IMG/VR virus record: IMGVR_UViG_3300016464_000385
DNA: 26,674 nt
Reading direction: 5' to 3' (one strand)
From: an uncultured virus (IMG/VR IMGVR_UViG_3300016464_000385)
Taxonomy: Duplodnaviria; Heunggongvirae; Uroviricota; Caudoviricetes
Shown here: positions 4,710-19,869 of the stretch, piece after piece
How positions within the stretch are numbered: position 1 is the stretch's first letter
Layout of the letters: every line of letters begins with the position of its first letter
Program-made: the position numbers and the translations under genes
The notes under the pieces: generated by a model
Database searches by the model: none
What the model saw: the letters and a program-made list of their open reading frames with translations, nothing else
What the model was told of the DNA's origin: nothing

Positions 4710-4967
4710 TTACCATTCTCTAGGAGTATCCCAGCGACTTTCTATACAGTGACCAGGATTATTCTTTTTTATCCTATCAATAACGCCTTTCTGGAAATCA
4801 GAAGGGGGTTTGGTTATTCCCAAAGAGATAGAATCTTGAAAATGCATTGTACTAAAATGTCTTTGGATATGAGGATTTTCTAATAAATATTTTTCATAAT
4901 CCGCAATAGACATCATCTTTTCGAACACTTCATTCGTTTCATTATTTTTCAATTCGTATATTGGCAC
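4710..4967 (-). CDS. Small FmdB-like conserved T4-like phage protein
   Basis: MPIYE...NETNEVFEK...YLLENP pattern; usual position next to phoH. Confidence 0.6.
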   Translation of the reverse strand: MPIYELKNNETNEVFEKMMSIADYEKYLLENPHIQRHFSTMHFQDSISLGITKPPSDFQKGVIDRIKKNNPGHCIESRWDTPREW

Positions 4968-5038
4968 GTATTATATCCTCCAAAAAACATTAATTATAAA
5001 TTTATTTATAAATATATAAAACCTTACAGGAGATTTTT

Positions 5039-7406: not shown

Positions 7407-8151
7407 GCTGTTTTTCCCAAACTATTATTTCAAAAGTGCCATCAAAATGTTCTACTAGAGCAGTACAACTTTCTACCCAATCTCCATCATTCATATAAAG
7501 TATTCCTTCGATTTCTTTTATTTCAGCATGATGTATGTGTCCGCATATAACGCCATCATAGAATTTTCTTCTACAATAATCAATTAAATTTTTTTCATAA
7601 TCAAAAATAAAATCTACAGCCCCTTTTACTTTATGTTTAAGATATTTACTAAATGACCAATATCCAAATCCAAATTTATGTCTAATCCAATTATATTTAG
7701 AATTTATAGATAATAATAAATCATAAGCTTTATCTCCAAGAAAACCTAGCCATGGAGCAATTTTAGATATTCCATCAAATATATCTCCATGTATAACTAG
7801 GTATCTCTTGCCGTTTACTCCTATATGATCAATTCTATTGACTATCTGTATTTTACCAAGAGAAAAATCATAAGATATTAATGGACGCAAAAATTCATCG
7901 TGATTACCCGTTATATATATTATTTTAGAACCTTTTTTTGATTTATTTAATATATGACGAATAACATTAGTATGAGATTTTTTCCATTTCCATTTGTTTT
8001 GTTGTATCTTCCAACCATCAATAATATCACCAATGAGGTAAATAGTATTCGCGGAATTATGTTTTAAAAAATCACACAATAATTCTGCTTTACAATCTCT
8101 AGTACCCAAGTGAATATCAGAGATAAATATAGAACGATATTTATTTTTCAT
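7381..8151 (-). CDS. plcP: LpxH-family metallophosphoesterase, PlcP-type phospholipase C
   Basis: YRSIFISDIHLG, GDIIDGW, GNHDEFLR, HGDIFD, CGHIHHAE, NDGDWVESCTALVE motifs. Confidence 0.8.
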   Translation of the reverse strand: MKNKYRSIFISDIHLGTRDCKAELLCDFLKHNSANTIYLIGDIIDGWKIQQNKWKWKKSHTNVIRHILNKSKKGSKIIYITGNHDEFLRPLISYDFSLGKIQIVNRIDHIGVNGKRYLVIHGDIFDGISKIAPWLGFLGDKAYDLLLSINSKYNWIRHKFGFGYWSFSKYLKHKVKGAVDFIFDYEKNLIDYCRRKFYDGVICGHIHHAEIKEIEGILYMNDGDWVESCTALVEHFDGTFEIIVWEKQHEEDINNN

Positions 8152-13615: not shown

Positions 13616-13672
13616 AGGATACATACAGCAATTTAAAAAACTTTTATGGGAAAAAGCAAAAAGTATCCTGTT
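13616..13672 (+). ncRNA. Y-RNA-like element (family A, copy 1)
   Basis: AGGATAC-ATACAGCAA...GTATCCT-GTT with a small CTTTT/AAAAG hairpin. Confidence 0.65.
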
Positions 13673-13687
13673 GATTAAGACCATATT

Positions 13688-13804
13688 AGGTTTGTTACAG
13701 CAATATTAATATTTTCTTTGCAACAGAAAAAGACTAGGTTCGAATCCTAGCATAGATTGGTCATCTATGTGGTGTAATGGATAGCACAAAAAAAGCAAAC
13801 CTGT
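13688..13804 (+). ncRNA. Y-RNA-like element (family A, copy 2) with permuted tRNA body
   Basis: AGGTTTG-TTACAGCAA; anticodon-like TTTTCT-TTGCAAC-AGAAAA; T arm; closed acceptor CATAGAT/ATCTATG; D arm; CAAACCT-GT. Confidence 0.75.
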
Positions 13805-15611: not shown

Positions 15612-16082
15612 ATGCGTACTATTAATGTAGAAGAAGTAAAAGAATATATAGAATCATTGGGTCCAAACACTAAAATATATATCGGCGGAGACTCTGAACG
15701 CTTCAAATTAAACGGTCAATGGTACGCAGATTATACTCTAGTTATAGTAGTACATATTAACGGTAAACATGGTTGTAAAGTTTTTGGTGAAATCCATAGG
15801 GAAAGGGATTTTGATCAAAAGAAACAAAAACCAAGAATGCGTCTTATGACAGAAGTATATAAAATAGCAGAATTATATCTAAAATTAAAAGACGTTCTGG
15901 AAGATAGAGAAGTAGAAGTCCATTTAGATATTAACAAAGATGAAAAATTTGGAAGTTCTTGTGTAGTTAATGAAGCTATCGGATACATTCGTGGTATGTG
16001 TAACGTAACGCCATTCGTAAAACCCAACGCTTGGGCAGCTTCTACCTGCGCTGATAGACTAAAAAGTTTAAATGTTGCATAA
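15612..16082 (+). CDS. RNase H-like YkuK/DUF458 family protein
   Basis: IYIGGDS, RLMTEV, EVHLDIN, VKPNAWAASTCAD motifs. Confidence 0.85.
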   Translation: MRTINVEEVKEYIESLGPNTKIYIGGDSERFKLNGQWYADYTLVIVVHINGKHGCKVFGEIHRERDFDQKKQKPRMRLMTEVYKIAELYLKLKDVLEDREVEVHLDINKDEKFGSSCVVNEAIGYIRGMCNVTPFVKPNAWAASTCADRLKSLNVA

Positions 16083-16090
16083 AAAAATGA

Positions 16091-16118
16091 TTGACTTTTT
16101 GAAAAAGTTTAGTATAAT
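16091..16118 (+). promoter_or_regulatory. Sigma70-like promoter driving the family A array and the DUF2828 gene
   Basis: TTGACT-N16-TATAAT, 10 nt before the first element. Confidence 0.7.
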
Positions 16119-16220: not shown

Positions 16221-16332
16221 AGAATCCTTACAGCATAATTATTGCATTGAAAGCCGTTTACATAGGTTCGATTCCTATTTTCCCCACATGGAAATAGCTT
16301 AGTGGTAAAGCAACGAAAAAGAGGATTCTGTT
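16221..16332 (+). ncRNA. Y-RNA-like element (family A, copy 4) with permuted tRNA body
   Basis: AGAATCCT-TACAGCA; T arm ATAGG-TTCGATT-CCTAT; TTTCC-CCACAT-GGAAA; D arm GCTT-AGTGGTA-AAGC; AGGATTCT-GTT. Confidence 0.78.
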
Positions 16333-16340
16333 AAGTTTTT

Positions 16341-16398
16341 AGGTTCGATTCAGCAAAATAACTTTCCGCCACATTTGGAAAAATAAAACGAACCTGTT
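16341..16398 (+). ncRNA. Y-RNA-like element (family A, copy 5)
   Basis: AGGTTCG-ATTCAGCAA; hairpin TTTCC-GCCACATTT-GGAAA; CGAACCT-GTT. Confidence 0.7.
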
Positions 16399-16407
16399 AA
16401 TGATTTT

Positions 16408-16525
16408 AGGGTACATACAGCCAAAATTTTTTGCAATTGTAATGCCGTGGTTGTTGGTTCGAGTCCAACTTTCTCTTAGGAGAAATAGCTCAATCGGTAG
16501 AGCACGTAAAAAACTGTATCCTGTT
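16408..16525 (+). ncRNA. Y-RNA-like element (family A, copy 6) with permuted tRNA body
   Basis: AGGGTACA-TACAGC; GCA-ATTGTAA-TGC; T arm GTTGG-TTCGAGT-CCAAC; TTTCTC-TTAG-GAGAAA; D arm GCTC-AATCGGTA-GAGC; TGTATCCT-GTT. Confidence 0.8.
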
Positions 16526-16533
16526 TAAATGTT

Positions 16534-16597
16534 AGGTTTATTTCCGCATATTAAAATAAACAAACTGAAACTTTGTCTAAAAAACATATAAACCTGT
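16534..16597 (+). ncRNA. Y-RNA-like element (family A, copy 7) with Phe anticodon stem-loop
   Basis: AGGTTTAT-TTCCGCA; ACAAA-CTGAAAC-TTTGT; ATAAACCT-GT; abuts the RBS of the DUF2828 gene. Confidence 0.68.
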
Positions 16598-16606
16598 GAG
16601 GTAATT

Positions 16607-18028
16607 ATGAACGCATTTGTAAACGCTGTTAAAAATCAAGAAGCTTTTACCGAAAATGGTATGAAGGCTCGTAAAAATACTGCAAACGCCGTTGTTGATC
16701 TATTTTATAAAGTTGGTGCTTCTCGCGGTAAGAATATTGTTCCTGACTTTACCGCTGCTTTTGTAGAAAATCCAGAACTAGCAATTCGAGTAGCTCTTTG
16801 GGCTCGCGACGTTCGTGGTGGGGCAGGTGAACGCGAAGTTTTTCGTCAAATTTTACTATATCTAGAAACCACTAATCCAAAATTAGTAGAAAAGATTCTC
16901 CCAAAAGTTCCTGAATTGGGTCGTTGGGATGACCTTCTAACTTTTAAGTCAGATTTCCGTTGGAAGGCATATGACTTTGTTAAGGATGCTATTTCTGCTA
17001 AGAATGGTTTATGCGCAAAATGGATGCCTCGTAAGGGCGAAGTTGCGGTAGAACTTCGTAATGCTCTAGGAATGTCGCCTAAACAATATCGTAAGACTTT
17101 AGTTAATTTAACTAAGGTTGTAGAAACTCAAATGTGCGCTAAAGATTGGAATAACATTAATTTCAGTCATGTTCCATCTGTGGCTTCTGCTAGATATAAG
17201 AAGGCTTTCTGGCGTAATGCTAAGGATACTTATGAATCTTATGTTGCTTCTCTTGTAAAAGGTGACAATCCAAAAGTTAAGGTTAATGCAGGAGCGGTTT
17301 ATCCATATGATGTACTGAAGGGTCTTTCAATTACATCAAGAAGTTATAACAAAACTCAACTTGATCTAATAGTCAAGCAATGGGAAGCTCTTCCTAATTA
17401 TGTTGGAGATGCTAGTATTCTACCTTTGGTTGATGTATCTGGTTCTATGATGTGTAAAGCGGGTGGAGCAGTTTCTAAAAGCGAAACTTCTTGTTTAGAT
17501 GTAGCTGTTTCTCTAGGTTTATATCTAGCAGAAAAGAATACTGGAGATTTTAAGGATACTTTCTTGACTTTTTCTAGTAATCCGGAATTATTACATCTAA
17601 AGGGTAATGTTGTGGATAAAATGAATCAGATGGTAACATCTGATTGGGGAATGTCTACTGATTTACATGCGGCTATGGATAAAATCTTACAAACTGCTGT
17701 AAATGGTAAAGTTTCTGGAGATGAAATGCCAAAAATACTATTGATCCTATCTGATATGCAGTTCAATCAATGCACTAGATTTAATGATTCTGCATATGAA
17801 ATGATCTCTCGTAAGTTTGAAAACGCAGGATATAATATGCCTAACATTGTTTTTTGGAATTTGAACGCGAAAGATAATGTTCCTGTTAAGTATGATACTA
17901 GCGGTGTATCATTAGTATCTGGATTCAGTCCATCTATAGTAAAAGCTATTCTATCTGCGGATACTAAAGACTTTACTCCAGAAGCAATTTGTCTAAAAAC
18001 GATTATGAATACACGTTACGACTTTTAA
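16607..18028 (+). CDS. DUF2828 helical domain plus C-terminal vWA protein (Ro60/TROVE-like architecture)
   Basis: TENG, RDVRGGAGER, GRWDDL, AKWMPR; MIDAS DVSGSM, ILSDMQF, IVFWNL, VSGFSP. Confidence 0.85.
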   Translation: MNAFVNAVKNQEAFTENGMKARKNTANAVVDLFYKVGASRGKNIVPDFTAAFVENPELAIRVALWARDVRGGAGEREVFRQILLYLETTNPKLVEKILPKVPELGRWDDLLTFKSDFRWKAYDFVKDAISAKNGLCAKWMPRKGEVAVELRNALGMSPKQYRKTLVNLTKVVETQMCAKDWNNINFSHVPSVASARYKKAFWRNAKDTYESYVASLVKGDNPKVKVNAGAVYPYDVLKGLSITSRSYNKTQLDLIVKQWEALPNYVGDASILPLVDVSGSMMCKAGGAVSKSETSCLDVAVSLGLYLAEKNTGDFKDTFLTFSSNPELLHLKGNVVDKMNQMVTSDWGMSTDLHAAMDKILQTAVNGKVSGDEMPKILLILSDMQFNQCTRFNDSAYEMISRKFENAGYNMPNIVFWNLNAKDNVPVKYDTSGVSLVSGFSPSIVKAILSADTKDFTPEAICLKTIMNTRYDF

Positions 18029-18032
18029 TTTA

Positions 18033-18057
18033 AGGAGAGTTTCGGCTCTCCATTTAA
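18033..18057 (+). terminator. Hairpin (weak terminator or processing site)
   Basis: GGAGAGT-TTCG-GCTCTCC followed by ATTT. Confidence 0.55.
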
Positions 18058-18071
18058 AATATTACTATATA

Positions 18072-18134
18072 AGGATACATTCAGCAAACCAAAAACACCA
18101 GACTCCTAATCTGAAACGTTAAACGTATCCTGTT
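18072..18134 (+). ncRNA. Y-RNA-like element (family A, copy 8) with Arg(CCT) anticodon stem-loop
   Basis: AGGATAC-ATTCAGCAA; CAGA-CTCCTAA-TCTG; GTATCCT-GTT. Confidence 0.72.
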
Positions 18135-18150
18135 AATTTTGAGGTAAATT

Positions 18151-18756
18151 ATGAAAGAAAATCTAACTGAAATTGTTGTAATTATTGATGCTTCTGGTTC
18201 TATGCATAATTTTTCTTCTGATACCATCGGAGGATTTAATGCTTTTATAGAGGAACAAAAGAAACTTCCTGGAGAAGCTAATATCACTTTAGCTACATTT
18301 AACGGCGTTGACCCTAATAATATTATATTTGATGGAGTAAATATACAAGATTGTCCTGGATTAAGTTCGGATAGTTATAAGCCAGATGGTATGACTCCGC
18401 TTTATGATGCTGTAGGAAATACTATTTCTGTAGTCGGAAAACGATTGGCTCAAATCCCGGAAGAAGAACGGCCATCTAAAGTTCTATTCTTGATTACTAC
18501 AGATGGTTTAGAAAATTGCAGTAAAGATTATACTAGAGAAAAAATTAAGAGTATGATTTATCATCAAAAGACTAAGTATAATTGGGAGTTTGTATTTACT
18601 GGGGCTAATATTGATTCTGCTTCTGTAGCTGATTCTATGAATATTTCATCTTCTGTAAATTACGATCAAAATAATACTTCTAATTTATATAGAGATGTAT
18701 TTAATACAGTTGCTTCTTCTTTCAGAGCAACTGGAAAATTAACTGTGAACGATTGA
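18151..18756 (+). CDS. Stand-alone vWA domain protein
   Basis: IIDASGSM MIDAS, GMTPLYDAVG, ITTDGLEN, WEFVFTGAN. Confidence 0.9.
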   Translation: MKENLTEIVVIIDASGSMHNFSSDTIGGFNAFIEEQKKLPGEANITLATFNGVDPNNIIFDGVNIQDCPGLSSDSYKPDGMTPLYDAVGNTISVVGKRLAQIPEEERPSKVLFLITTDGLENCSKDYTREKIKSMIYHQKTKYNWEFVFTGANIDSASVADSMNISSSVNYDQNNTSNLYRDVFNTVASSFRATGKLTVND

Positions 18757-19186: not shown

Positions 19187-19234
19187 AATAAAAAGCTTTA
19201 CTTTTTTCTGATATATAGTATAATATATTAAATC

Positions 19235-19269
19235 GCGGGTATCGTATAATGGTTATTACCTCTGCCTTC
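19235..19269 (+). pseudogene. 5' half of tRNA-Gly broken within the anticodon
   Basis: GCGGGTA-TC-GTATAATGGTTATTAC-C-TCTGC-CTTC then unrelated AT-rich sequence. Confidence 0.75.
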
Positions 19270-19300
19270 ACATTTATATAAATACAAATAAGAGGACTAT

Positions 19301-19804
19301 ATGTTTTATTACTTGTATCAAATAAGAAATAATGTGAATGGAAAAATATATATTGGGGTCCATAAAACCAATGACTTAAATGATGGATATATGGGTTCCG
19401 GTAAACGCTTACATGATGCATATAAGCACCACGGAATAGAAAATTTTACCAAAACTATTTTGGAGGAATTTAATAATTCTGATGAGATGTATGCTAGAGA
19501 AAAACAAATAGTCACCGAAGAGTTTTTAAATAGAAACGATACCTATAACCTTCGAAGAGGCGGGACCGGAGGATTTGATTTTATCAATAATTCTGGGATT
19601 CAAAAATTCAAAGGAAAATCGCATTCTGTTGAATCCAGGTCATTAATGGGCCATCCGGGGAATAACCACGCCGTTGGAAATACTGGTGGCAAAAAGAACA
19701 AAGGGAAAAAGAGAGAGCGTATAGAATGCCCACATTGCCACAAAATATGTGGGGTAAATATGATAGTAAGACATCATTTAGATAAGTGTAAAATGCGGGT
19801 ATAA
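19301..19804 (+). mobile_element. GIY-YIG (Seg-like) homing endonuclease
   Basis: YLYQIRNNVNGKIYIGVHKT...YMGSG; C-terminal CPHC..HHLDKC; TATAAATA at 19277-19284. Confidence 0.9.
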
Positions 19805-19869
19805 CTCAGCGGTAGAGTGTCAGCCTTCCAAGCTGTTCGTCGTCGGTTCGATTCCGATTACCCGCTCCA
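19795..19869 (+). tRNA. tRNA-Gly(TCC)
   Basis: Cloverleaf, loop CTTCCAA, U73, CCA. Confidence 0.93.

What the first reader, a model, noticed from the sequence alone, without database searches (positions are those of the whole stretch)
16534..18134. Isolated anticodon stem-loops as cargo: a possible decoy library
Seen: cargo hairpins have 7-nt anticodon-type loops with U33 and purine 37. They are ACAAA-CT GAA AC-TTTGT (Phe, 16560-16576), CAGA-CT CCT AA-TCTG (Arg, 18099-18113), TTTTCT-TT GCA AC-AGAAAA (Cys, 13712-13730), GCA-AT TGT AA-TGC (Thr, 16433-16445) and a weak GC-AT TGA AA-GC (Ser, 16244-16254). Phe(GAA) and Arg(CCT) have no intact tRNA in this window. Known: anticodon nucleases (PrrC, RloC, VapC, PARIS AriB) act in anti-phage defence. 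Inference: the loops titrate such nucleases or tRNA-modifying enzymes, with anticodon identity varying like a memory of host pressures.
Basis: partly seen in the sequence, partly recalled or inferred. Interest (0 to 1): 0.85.

Follow-up and report, generated by a model that had tools for sequence, protein, structure and literature searches.

The report
Anticodon-loop mimics on phage Y-like RNAs
A freshwater phage encodes a row of small RNAs that share one conserved handle and display tRNA parts, some only an anticodon hairpin, around a gene for a Ro60-like RNA-binding protein, which points to a new kind of Y-RNA particle aimed at proteins that bind tRNA.

Summary
All five hairpins lie at the stated coordinates. 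Three are solid (Cys 13712-13730, Phe 16560-16576, Arg 18099-18113) and two are weak, with 3-bp and 2-bp stems.

They are cargo of seven tandem small-RNA units. Each unit has a covarying 7-bp terminal helix, a single-stranded WCAGCAA-type motif after the 5' strand, and GU after the 3' strand.

In 86 distinct short cargos from related phage contigs, 48 carry a 7-nt loop with U33 and R37. Dinucleotide shuffles give 5.3 +/- 2.4.

ORF 16607-18028 (DUF2828/DUF7788) has a Ro60 fold. Three window units carry YrlA-like tRNA domains. In 78 of 94 related loci a unit ends within 120 nt of this gene's start codon.

Best reading: a distinct family of Y-RNA-like partners of a Ro60 paralogue, displaying whole tRNA mimics or single tRNA arms. 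A decoy role against anticodon nucleases is plausible (Thr-UGU and Lys-UUU dominate; a Felix-O1-like homologue counters the Ppl defence) but unproven.

Verdict: a new variant of a known kind, and interesting.

The parts
13616..13671 (+). Unit a. Handle AGGAUAC/GUAUCCU, motif AU-ACAGCAA, cargo a 5-bp hairpin with a 6-nt loop (not anticodon-like).
   Evidence: Pattern scan. Model R1 70.4 bits. Rfam Dicty_Class_I_RNA 29.7 bits, below its gathering score of 41.5.
13688..13804 (+). Unit b. Handle AGGUUUG/CAAACCU. Cargo is a circularly permuted tRNA mimic: anticodon arm Cys-GCA (13712-13730), T arm, closed acceptor hairpin, D arm.
   Evidence: 6-bp stem, loop UUGCAAC. The fold shows the T arm, acceptor hairpin, D arm and terminal helix (z = -2.40), but not the Cys anticodon hairpin, which rests and the sequence. 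Partial tRNA match 13703-13750.
15612..16082 (+). RNase H-like gene (PF04308), a frequent neighbour.
   Evidence: Pfam E 6.3e-18. phrog_11311. tblastn finds it in 39 of 105 related loci, mostly 0.7-5 kb upstream of the Ro-like gene.
16091..16118 (+). Best sigma-70-like promoter match of the region (TTGACT, 16 nt, TATAAT), upstream of units c-f and the gene.
   Evidence: 11 of 12 consensus positions. This is a consensus match only.
16221..16331 (+). Unit c. Handle AGAAUCC/GGAUUCU. YrlA-like tRNA domain, preceded by the weak 2-bp 'Ser' hairpin 16244-16254.
   Evidence: Scan. Rfam YrlA 16255-16317, 27.3 bits, model positions 23-87. R1 30.1 bits.
16341..16397 (+). Unit d. Handle AGGUUCG/CGAACCU. 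Cargo is a 6-bp hairpin whose loop reads like an acceptor end (GCCA).
   Evidence: Scan. Fold. R1 53.1 bits. The acceptor-like reading is mine, from the sequence.
16408..16524 (+). Unit e. Handle AGGGUAC/GUAUCCU. YrlA-like tRNA domain, preceded by the 3-bp 'Thr' hairpin 16433-16445.
   Evidence: Rfam YrlA 16445-16509, 42.4 bits, E 8.7e-7, below the gathering score of 69. Fold z = -2.49.
16534..16597 (+). Unit f. Handle AGGUUUA/UAAACCU, motif UU-UCCGCA. Cargo is only an anticodon-type hairpin, Phe-GAA (16560-16576). The unit ends 10 nt before the start codon.
   Evidence: Scan. Minimum-free-energy fold = handle + hairpin. R1 56.1 bits. An RNA-library contig covers 16419-16611 with no differences (not proof of transcription).
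16607..18028 (+). Ro60-fold protein (DUF2828 + DUF7788; helical ring plus vWA domain with DxSxS).
   Evidence: Pfam. phrog_850 'RNA-binding protein'. AlphaFold2 pLDDT 89.4, pTM 0.89. The 13 best Foldseek PDB matches are all Ro60. D276, S278 and S280 are invariant.
18072..18133 (+). Unit g. Handle AGGAUAC/GUAUCCU, motif AU-UCAGCAA. Cargo is only an anticodon-type hairpin, Arg-CCU (18099-18113).
   Evidence: Scan. Fold. R1 68.7 bits. An RNA-library contig covers 18005-18200.
18151..18756 (+). Small downstream gene (phrog_7371, function unknown). Its N-terminus reads like a vWA metal site by eye. Rarely conserved here.
   Evidence: PHROGs. No Pfam match. Found in 3 of 105 related loci.

Best explanation
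The finding lies inside an operon-like block of a large freshwater phage. It reads: promoter, four tandem small RNAs, a gene for a Ro60-fold protein, one more small RNA. Two further units lie 2.9 kb upstream among the tRNA genes.

Every unit has the same handle. The 5' and 3' ends pair in a 7-bp helix whose sequence covaries. The 5' strand is followed by a single-stranded WCAGCAA-type motif, and the 3' strand by GU. Between the handle strands sits a variable cargo taken from tRNA:
- a whole permuted tRNA body (T arm, sealed acceptor, D arm, with or without an anticodon arm), like the Y RNA YrlA; or
- a single arm, in two window units only an anticodon stem-loop with a canonical 7-nt loop on a generic A/U stem.

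I infer that the handle is the docking site for the adjacent Ro60-like protein, as the stem of a Y RNA is for Ro60. I also infer that the cargo brings the particle to proteins that read tRNA shape or the anticodon loop.

The most likely targets are host factors in the phage-host conflict over tRNA: tRNA-cleaving defence nucleases, or repair, modification and decay enzymes.

Shown here: the units, their covariation, the anticodon-loop signature, the Ro60 fold and the tight linkage to the gene.

Inferred: protein-RNA binding, processing into about 60-120-nt RNAs, and the target.
For: - The handle helix is paired in 99.8% of cells in 135 distinct sequences. Six of 7 pairs show changes on both sides. 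The covariation score is 0.669, against 0.152 in shuffles and at most 0.105 with slid partners (the alignment is fitted to the model). The hand-picked set A1 gives the same picture.
- The strict pattern hits 283 times on the gene strand and 9 times on the other strand in 956 kb. All 167 of 167 model R1 matches with E <= 0.001 are on the gene strand.
- In 78 of 94 loci a unit ends within 120 nt of the start codon. 174 of 279 units start within 500 nt upstream of the gene.
- The protein has a Ro60 fold.
- The tRNA-like cargo matches YrlA positions 23-87. Full-length weak YrlA matches occur in a Klebsiella phage and a mycobacteriophage.
- The anticodon-loop signature is enriched.
- Handle units lie next to the homologous gene in distant phages. 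By model: Klebsiella KP2025 (E 1.7e-7), Felix-O1-like FO1a and Bas63 (E 0.003-0.36), Mycobacterium LeBron (0.022), Campylobacter Los1 (0.49). By eye: three units in a Listeria phage.
- Literature. Y-like RNAs bind a Thermus phage Ro60 and PNPase (PMC12135203, abstract and passages). Abundant non-coding transcripts lie upstream of the Rsr-like gene of Listeria phage CKA15, and that protein is found in virions (PMC12282133, passages). Bas63 gp130 counters Ppl (PMC11482910, passages) and is 38% identical to the window's protein.
Against: - No call shows that the protein binds these RNAs or that the RNAs are processed and stable.
- The handle does not resemble the Ro-binding module of the YrlA consensus. 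All YrlA scores are below Rfam's gathering score (at most 42.4 against 69).
- The anticodon-only units fold weakly (-4.8 and -8.1 kcal/mol; z = -0.19 and -1.36).
- In the Bas63 study the protein alone, from a plasmid or inserted in T7, sufficed against Ppl. The RNAs are therefore not needed for that effect.
- The last unit abuts the ribosome-binding site, so a cis-regulatory role is also possible.
- The units were found with a pattern that demands perfect pairing, and many loci come from related phages. Counts of distinct sequences are therefore not independent events.
- 38 of 86 short cargos are not anticodon-like. They include a subfamily with 9-nt loops.
Confidence: 0.6

Rival explanations
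1. The anticodon-only units are decoys or competitive inhibitors for host anticodon-directed nucleases (PARIS AriB, OLD, PrrC or RloC type) or for modification enzymes. The set of anticodons tracks the defences a phage lineage meets. The Ro60-like protein would stabilise or present them.
For: - The loops are canonical anticodon loops on generic A/U stems, so selection seems to act on the loop.
- Commonest anticodons: Thr-UGU 10, Lys-UUU 6, Ser-UGA 5, Ser-GGA 4, Arg-UCU 4, Asn-GUU 3.
- AriB targets tRNA-Lys(UUU), Thr(UGU) and Asn(GUU). P2 OLD targets Thr(UGU) (abstracts).
- 11 of 13 distinct U36 cargo loops keep UAAU at positions 36-39, against 55 of 209 real phage tRNA anticodon arms. AriB recognises UAAU, and U39-to-A abolishes cleavage (section 22).
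- The identity at the position next to the gene differs between relatives.
- A homologous protein is a counter-defence factor.
Against: - No cleavage or binding data exist.
- The sample for the UAAU contrast is small, and A/U-only stems favour U39 by composition.
- AriB also needs D-loop contacts.
- P2 OLD needs a CNG motif in the stem, which the A/U-only cargo stems shown lack.
- Position 36 is U or A in 45 of 48 loops, in cargo that is 77% A+T. Composition could therefore shape the anticodon list.
- Ppl is not known to cut tRNA, and gp130 acts without phage RNAs.
- 39 of 72 anticodon-only instances sit in a locus that also has a real tRNA with the same anticodon. This neither helps nor excludes the idea.
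Confidence: 0.2
2. The units are mainly cis-acting. The handle in the 5' leader is an operator through which the Ro60-like protein represses its own translation, or a processing signal that separates tRNAs and mRNA in a long transcript. The cargo would be incidental.
For: - The nearest unit ends 10-26 nt before the start codon in most loci.
- In the window the tail after the handle runs into the ribosome-binding site.
- A promoter-like site lies upstream of units c-f and the gene.
Against: - There are up to seven units per locus, with a median of 3.
- Some units lie kilobases away among tRNA genes. Some lie downstream of the gene, as in the window's unit g and in the Klebsiella, Felix-O1-like and mycobacteriophage loci.
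- The conserved anticodon-loop and tRNA-like cargo would be unexplained.
- Abundant non-coding RNAs are reported upstream of the homologous Listeria phage gene.
Confidence: 0.1
3. They are split or permuted tRNA genes, matured by cutting and joining at the handle into working tRNAs. The anticodon-only units would be halves or remnants of such genes.
For: - In the tRNA-like units the order is anticodon arm, T arm, acceptor, D arm.
- In Cronobacter phage S13, Synechococcus phage BUCT-ZZ01 and several close relatives, the same handle appears as a closed hairpin. It is inserted between the D arm and the anticodon arm of otherwise normal tRNA genes with CCA ends.
Against: - The acceptor stems are sealed by loops of 2-6 nt, without a regular discriminator-CCA, as in YrlA.
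- The anticodon-only and acceptor-only units cannot give a tRNA.
- I saw no splicing endonuclease in the window.
- The anticodon stems are A/U-only, unlike the real tRNAs of the same loci.
Confidence: 0.05
4. They are decaying debris of tRNA genes, broken by the homing endonucleases that crowd this region, and have no function of their own.
For: - HNH and GIY-YIG endonuclease genes lie among the tRNAs.
- A truncated 5' copy of tRNA-Gly sits at 19234-19271 beside a GIY-YIG gene.
Against: - The handle covaries.
- All hits lie on one strand and next to one gene.
- The same short anticodon hairpin recurs on many different handles.
- The family spans phages of Gram-negative, Gram-positive and mycobacterial hosts.
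Confidence: 0.03

Closest known systems
YrlA-type bacterial Y RNAs with Rsr/Ro60 (Rfam RF02553; Chen et al. 2014, PMC4201824: passages and supplementary table S2 read)
   Same: Both are small RNAs encoded beside, and on the strand of, a Ro60-fold gene, often in tandem. Both have a terminal helix formed by the two ends and a cargo that is a permuted tRNA mimic with a sealed acceptor stem.
   Different: - The handle has another consensus (a helix plus single-stranded WCAGCAA). It does not align with the YrlA stem, and scores stay below the gathering score.
- The partner is a DUF2828/DUF7788 paralogue, not a Pfam TROVE protein.
- Many units carry only an anticodon arm. I found this described for Y RNAs in none of the papers I read.
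- The phages in that paper's table are cluster-C mycobacteriophages, Bacillus phage G and CcrColossus.
Thermus phage phiLo phiRo60 with Yrl1/Yrl2 (PMC12135203; abstract and passages read; PDB 9KOP, 9L5Y)
   Same: A phage-encoded Ro60-fold protein with Y-like RNAs encoded just upstream. It is proposed to take over a host enzyme (PNPase). Its structure is among the best matches to the model.
   Different: Those RNAs were picked by a CGAA motif and predicted folds. The passages I saw mention no ACAGCAA-type handle and no anticodon cargo.
   Same: It is 38% identical to the window's protein over the full length. It lies directly upstream of the tRNA cluster. I find three handle units within 1 kb downstream of it. 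The authors guessed that some 'tRNA genes' might be Y RNAs.
   Different: The RNAs were not identified there. The protein alone gave protection when moved to a plasmid or to T7.
Dictyostelium Class I RNAs (Rfam RF01414; Kjellin et al. 2021, PMC7919456; passages read)
   Same: The architecture and size are the same: about 60 nt, a short terminal stem whose structure but not sequence is conserved, and a conserved motif ending in UACAGCAA directly after the 5' strand. The interior is variable, and a short UG/GU tail follows the 3' strand. Phage units score up to 38.6 bits against this model.
   Different: - All scores are below the gathering score of 41.5.
- No match appeared in the five distant phage loci.
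- These are eukaryotic nuclear genes with their own promoter element.
- The known binder is an RRM protein.
- I could not check whether dictyostelids have a DUF2828 protein.
Phage tRNA variants that escape tRNA-cleaving defences (T5 tRNAs against PARIS AriB, PMC12409363, abstract and sections 22-23 read; phage tRNA-Thr against P2 OLD, PMC12445682, abstract read)
   Same: Both are phage-encoded RNAs with anticodon loops of Lys-UUU, Thr-UGU and Asn-GUU, set in the conflict over tRNA.
   Different: Those are full, working tRNAs that replace cleaved host tRNAs. The units here cannot be charged, and they keep rather than lose the UAAU element.

Membership tests
Y RNA / YrlA (RF02553) | Encoded near, and on the same strand as, a Ro60-family gene | tested here: met
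   Ro60 fold. A unit ends within 120 nt of the start codon in 78 of 94 loci. 167 of 167 model matches lie on the gene strand.
Y RNA / YrlA (RF02553) | 5' and 3' ends pair in a terminal stem | tested here: met
   7-bp helix, 99.8% paired, 6 of 7 pairs with changes on both sides.
Y RNA / YrlA (RF02553) | Ro-binding module with the family's consensus; score at or above Rfam's gathering score | tested here: not met
   Best score 42.4 bits against 69. The handle region aligns poorly to the YrlA consensus, and that consensus has no ACAGCAA-type motif.
Y RNA / YrlA (RF02553) | tRNA-like domain (T arm, D arm, sealed acceptor) | tested here: met
   Met in 3 of the 7 window units. Two (16221, 16408) match model positions 23-87. 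The third (13688) is shown by its fold. The anticodon-only units 16534 and 18072 lack this domain.
Y RNA / YrlA (RF02553) | Physically bound by the Ro60 protein | not testable with these tools
   No protein-RNA tool is available. This needs a pull-down or gel-shift.
Ro60 / TROVE protein | Ring of helical repeats plus a vWA domain with a metal site | tested here: met
   Model pLDDT 89.4. Full-length matches to Ro60 structures, E 4e-9 to 1e-5, TM 0.48-0.63. D276, S278 and S280 are invariant.
Ro60 / TROVE protein | Sequence match to the family | tested here: not met
   Pfam gives only DUF2828 and DUF7788. phmmer against PDB finds nothing. A profile gives E 0.13 to a TROVE protein over 44 residues.
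tRNA (RF00005) | Cloverleaf with an open acceptor end, in normal order | tested here: not met
   Neither ARAGORN nor Rfam at its gathering score calls any of the seven units. The order is permuted, or only one arm is present.
Anticodon stem-loop (as a structural element) | Stem of about 5 bp, 7-nt loop, U33, purine 37 | tested here: met
   Three of the five window hairpins have at least 4 bp. 48 of 86 homologous cargos meet the rule, against 5.3 expected.
Dictyostelium Class I RNA (RF01414) | Short terminal stem plus the conserved 11-nt motif next to the 5' strand; score at or above the gathering score | tested here: inconclusive
   The architecture and the last 8 nt of the motif are shared. 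Scores are 38.6, 31.0, 29.7, 22.4, 14.9 and 13.9 bits against a gathering score of 41.5. No match in five distant loci.
Decoy for anticodon nucleases (functional class) | Bound or cleaved by the nuclease; protects the phage | not testable with these tools
   Only indirect evidence: the anticodon list and the UAAU contrast.

The most novel reading that the evidence does not exclude
The ACAGCAA handle is a universal docking tag for the DUF2828 branch of Ro60 proteins. Phages use it as a plug-in display system. Any tRNA part (a whole body, an acceptor end, or a bare anticodon loop) can be mounted on it, or the tag can be inserted into a working tRNA between the D and anticodon arms. The anticodon-only units act as decoys or sensors for tRNA-cleaving immune nucleases, and they turn over with the defences of the host. 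The same tag in Dictyostelium Class I RNAs would mean that these long-unexplained eukaryotic RNAs are the Y RNAs of the DUF2828 proteins.
Probability: 0.15. Interest if true: 0.9.

Novelty: new variant of a known kind. Interest (0 to 1): 0.75.

Why it matters
Homologues of this protein occur in 710 of 50,697 phage records. They include Felix-O1-like, KVP40-like, Listeria P100-like, staphylococcal, campylobacter and mycobacterial phages. The family has 6,400 representatives at E <= 0.001 in the 50%-identity cluster library. Its RNA partners had only been guessed at.

A defined handle makes those partners findable in any genome. It also explains odd 'tRNA' calls: the 113-nt and 121-nt 'tRNAs' in phage S13, and a 432-nt 'tRNA-Arg' in phage KP2025.

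It gives a direct experiment for what phage Ro60-like particles do.

Bare anticodon loops displayed on a protein-binding tag would be a new way for a virus to engage the machinery that reads or cuts anticodons. This would add to the current picture in which phages answer tRNA-cleaving immunity only with replacement tRNAs and repair enzymes.

Tried and rejected
- **Rfam at gathering scores.** It finds only tRNAs in the window. No catalogued family covers the units.
- **Whole genome.** It is not held, so I could not test the full tRNA set or the genome-wide distribution of units.
- **Sequence search of the protein against PDB.** It found nothing useful. The fold search was needed.
- **Thermodynamic stability of the anticodon-only units.** It is not significant, so I do not use it as support.
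- **A regular-expression scan for the closed-handle form inside tRNAs.** It was not specific (67 hits on the gene strand, 78 on the other). Only the individually inspected cases are used: S13, BUCT-ZZ01, and L001, L007, L009, L028, L063 and L073.
- **The idea that the cargo anticodon pairs with the ACA or UCA triplet of the unit's own motif.** I dropped it on inspection. Thr-UGU cargo sits on UCAGC handles as well.
- **Metatranscriptome run X20.** Its contigs cover units a/b, f and g. The tool warns that DNA may be present and that contigs show no ends. This is at most a hint of expression.
- **Link to Dictyostelium.** I could not establish whether dictyostelids encode a DUF2828 protein. The atlas search returned only viral clusters. 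The DUF2828 literature search (5 papers) listed only plant papers and a tardigrade gene-transfer paper.
- **Earlier notes.** There were none for this genome and none for this protein sequence.
- **Literature searches for the family and for anticodon decoys**. None of the listed papers describes these units. Papers outside the held library could.
Full report
**What is there.** The window is the tRNA region of a large A+T-rich phage. ARAGORN finds 20 tRNA genes, all on the + strand, interspersed with HNH and GIY-YIG endonuclease genes. Near-identical DNA occurs in freshwater, lake and estuary metagenomes of 14 studies. No close relative is in the phage collection at the DNA level.

Three have stems of 4-6 bp. 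The 'Thr' hairpin has 3 bp and the 'Ser' hairpin has 2 bp (and direct reading).

**The hairpins are cargo of a repeated unit.** Seven units lie on the + strand: 13616-13671, 13688-13804, 16221-16331, 16341-16397, 16408-16524, 16534-16597 and 18072-18133. Each unit has these parts in order:
- It begins A-G-(G/A)-NNNN.
- Two bases follow, then a WCAGCAA-type motif.
- A variable cargo comes next.
- The exact complement of the first seven bases follows the cargo.
- The unit ends with GU.

The handle pattern occurs 6 times in the window, against 0.96 expected.

The cargo differs between units:
- Two units carry only an anticodon-type hairpin: Phe-GAA in unit 16534 and Arg-CCU in unit 18072.
- Three units carry a circularly permuted tRNA body (T arm, acceptor stem sealed by a short loop, D arm), preceded by an anticodon-type hairpin that is solid in one unit and weak in two.
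- One unit carries a hairpin whose loop reads like an acceptor end.
- One unit carries a hairpin with a 6-nt loop.

Rfam places two of the tRNA-like cargos on positions 23-87 of the YrlA model, the tRNA-like domain of a bacterial Y RNA. The scores are 42.4 and 27.3 bits, below the gathering score of 69.

**The gene in the middle.** ORF 16607-18028 matches Pfam DUF2828 and DUF7788 and phrog_850, 'RNA-binding protein'. Sequence searches against solved structures give nothing usable.

I built an AlphaFold2 model from 32 aligned homologues. It has pLDDT 89.4 and pTM 0.89. Foldseek aligns it over its full length to Ro60 from Xenopus, human, Deinococcus and Thermus phage phiLo. These are the 13 best matches, with E 4e-9 to 1e-5 and TM 0.48-0.63. 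After them come only vWA domains. The DxSxS metal-site residues are invariant.

So the finding's span holds a Ro60 paralogue flanked by small RNAs. That is the layout of Ro60 with its Y RNAs (Chen et al. 2014, passages).

**Relatives.** The protein has homologues in 710 of 50,697 phage records and 6,400 cluster representatives at E <= 0.001. I fetched 95 viral-contig loci with proteins 58-81% identical and ten loci from named phages.

In 100 sources (956 kb) the strict unit pattern hits 283 times on the gene's strand and 9 times on the other strand. This gives 231 distinct units.

I built a covariance model from 14 short units. In 96 sources it finds 167 matches with E <= 0.001, all on the gene strand.

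In the model-fitted alignment of 135 distinct sequences the handle is paired in 99.8% of cells. Six of 7 pairs show changes on both sides. The covariation score is 0.669, against 0.152 in shuffles and at most 0.105 with slid partners.

A unit ends within 120 nt of the start codon in 78 of 94 loci, mostly 10-26 nt before it. Of 279 units, 174 start within 500 nt upstream of the gene.

In the window the best promoter-like site of the region lies just upstream of units c-f.

Among 86 distinct short cargos (20-55 nt), 48 have a hairpin of at least 4 bp with a 7-nt loop, U at loop position 2 and a purine at position 6. Dinucleotide shuffles give 5.3 +/- 2.4, with a maximum of 13 in 200 shuffles. 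At 5 bp or more the count is 42 against 1.7 +/- 1.25.

In the 64 hairpins with 7-nt loops, position 32 is C or A in 56, position 33 is U in 50, position 37 is A in 56 and position 38 is A in 48. This matches the real tRNAs of the same loci, which are mostly C/U-U-NNN-A-A.

The 48 loops meeting the rule have these anticodons:

| Anticodon | Count |
|---|---|
| Thr-UGU | 10 |
| Lys-UUU | 6 |
| Ser-UGA | 5 |
| Ser-GGA | 4 |
| Arg-UCU | 4 |
| Phe-GAA | 3 |
| Asn-GUU | 3 |
| Cys-GCA | 3 |
| Others | 10 in total |

The stems are generic A/U helices, unlike the G+C-rich anticodon stems of the phages' own tRNAs. In 39 of 72 instances the locus also has a real tRNA with the same anticodon. The units are therefore neither copies of the phage's tRNAs nor fillers for missing ones.

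Not all cargo is anticodon-like. 38 of 86 short cargos fail the rule, among them a subfamily with 9-nt loops. Longer cargos include tRNA-like bodies and modules of 140-270 nt that match no Rfam family.

**Breadth.** The same handle lies next to the homologous gene in distant phages (sequences read):
- Klebsiella KP2025: model E 1.7e-7 and 0.008.
- Felix-O1-like FO1a and Bas63: E 0.003-0.36.
- Mycobacterium phage LeBron: E 0.022; three units by eye.
- Campylobacter Los1: E 0.49; two units by eye.
- A Listeria P100-like phage: three units by eye, not found by the model.

The marginal E-values and the readings by eye are weaker evidence than the results for the close relatives. The common core is a helix of 6-8 bp followed after 1-3 bases by ACAGCAA.

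In Cronobacter phage S13, Synechococcus phage BUCT-ZZ01 and several close relatives the handle also occurs closed by a 4-6-nt loop. There it is inserted between the D arm and the anticodon arm of otherwise normal tRNA genes with CCA ends. Annotators called the S13 cases 'tRNA-Ser' (121 nt) and 'tRNA-OTHER' (113 nt). The window's tRNA-like units are the circular permutation of that design.

**How it relates to known Y RNAs.** The tRNA-like cargo is YrlA-like, but the handle is not. The YrlA consensus stem has no such motif, and the handle region aligns to it with many non-pairs.

The phages in Chen et al.'s table are cluster-C mycobacteriophages, Bacillus phage G and CcrColossus. A Thermus phage Ro60 binds two upstream Y-like RNAs and host PNPase.

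For the DUF2828 branch the RNAs have only been guessed at:
- In Listeria phage CKA15 three highly transcribed non-coding regions lie within 2 kb upstream of the Rsr-like gene. Its protein is found in purified virions.
- In Bas63 the authors suggest that some annotated tRNAs might be Y RNAs.

Four literature searches listed no paper that defines this handle or describes anticodon-only cargo. Papers outside the held library could.

**Function.** The units, their covariation, the anticodon signature, the Ro60 fold and the linkage are shown. Binding of the handle by the protein is inferred by analogy.

The best experimental lead is Bas63 gp130. It is 38% identical to the window's protein. Its deletion sensitises the phage to the Ppl defence, and its transfer to a plasmid or into T7 restores plating. 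That makes the protein a counter-defence factor, but it acted there without the phage's RNAs.

The decoy idea gains from two points:
- The cargo anticodons overlap the reported targets of AriB and P2 OLD.
- 11 of 13 distinct U36 cargo loops keep the UAAU element needed by AriB, against 55 of 209 real phage tRNA arms.

It loses from three points:
- The sample is small and the stems are A/U-biased.
- AriB needs D-loop contacts.
- P2 OLD needs a stem motif that the A/U-only cargo stems shown lack.

I rate 'Y-like partners of the Ro60 paralogue that present tRNA parts' at 0.6. I rate the specific decoy mechanism at 0.2. Cis-regulation, permuted functional tRNA genes and debris rank lower.

**An unexpected resemblance.** Rfam's model of Dictyostelium Class I RNAs hits several units: 38.6, 31.0, 29.7 and 22.4 bits, against a gathering score of 41.5.

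Those RNAs are about 60 nt long. They have a short terminal stem conserved in structure only, a conserved 11-nt motif next to the 5' strand whose last eight bases equal the phage motif, and a variable interior. One of these RNAs associates with four proteins, of which the passages I read name only one, the RRM protein Rnp1A (passages).

The literature search for DUF2828 returned plant papers, so the domain occurs in plants. I could not check dictyostelids. This may be chance in A+T-rich sequence, so I keep it as a lead.

**Verdict.** The feature is real, widespread and uncatalogued as an RNA family. It is a new variant of the Ro60/Y-RNA theme, whose anticodon-only members are the surprising part.

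Noticed in passing
L018 7896-8138 (Cronobacter phage S13); L016 about 7590-7860 (Synechococcus phage BUCT-ZZ01); L007 about 687-814, L001 about 2547-2674, and also L009, L028, L063, L073: Otherwise normal tRNA genes with CCA ends carry an insertion of about 40 nt between the D arm and the anticodon arm. The insertion is the same handle closed into a hairpin, plus the UCAGCA/UCUGCA motif. Annotators called the S13 cases 'tRNA-Ser' (121 nt) and 'tRNA-OTHER' (113 nt).
   Followed up: partly
window 13617-13670, 18073-18132, 16535-16596; L005 920-974; L015 3852-3906: Units match Rfam's Dictyostelium Class I RNA model at 15-38.6 bits (gathering score 41.5). The stem, the UACAGCAA motif and the size are the same. 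This could be chance, or a shared protein partner.
   Followed up: partly
L004 473-691, L006 26-191, L002 3562-3744, L016 5651-5830, L017 2433-2615, L019 2989-3261: Handle units with large cargos of 140-270 nt. They contain T-arm-like hairpins but match no Rfam family at E <= 1. The strict-pattern scan counted 27 distinct units in the 140-149-nt cargo class.
   Followed up: no
window 16341-16397: This unit's only cargo is a 6-bp hairpin with GCCA in its loop. It looks like an isolated acceptor-stem mimic, matching the sealed acceptor of the neighbouring unit 16221-16331.
   Followed up: no
window 19234-19271 and 19301-19804: A truncated 5' copy of tRNA-Gly (the intact gene is at 19795-19869) lies just before a GIY-YIG endonuclease gene. 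It is probably a scar of homing-endonuclease insertion.
   Followed up: no
L103 3463-4014 (Listeria phage vB_Lino_VEfB7): A ROOL RNA match (87.4 bits, gathering score 99.1) lies about 1 kb upstream of the Ro-like gene and its three handle units. It may be one of the 'highly transcribed non-coding regions' reported for the related phage CKA15.
   Followed up: no
L101 4905-5336 (Klebsiella phage KP2025): A 432-nt 'tRNA-Arg-TCT' is annotated across the start of the DUF2828 gene. Rfam places a normal tRNA at 4905-4976, so the long feature is an annotation artefact.
   Followed up: partly
L015 1517-1855: A permuted (two-piece, alpha-proteobacterial type) tmRNA gene lies in a related viral contig, 2 kb upstream of the Ro-like gene (89.4 bits, above its gathering score).
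   Followed up: no
window 15612-16082: An RNase H-like (PF04308) gene accompanies the Ro-like gene in 39 of 105 related loci. It may be a third component of the system.
   Followed up: partly
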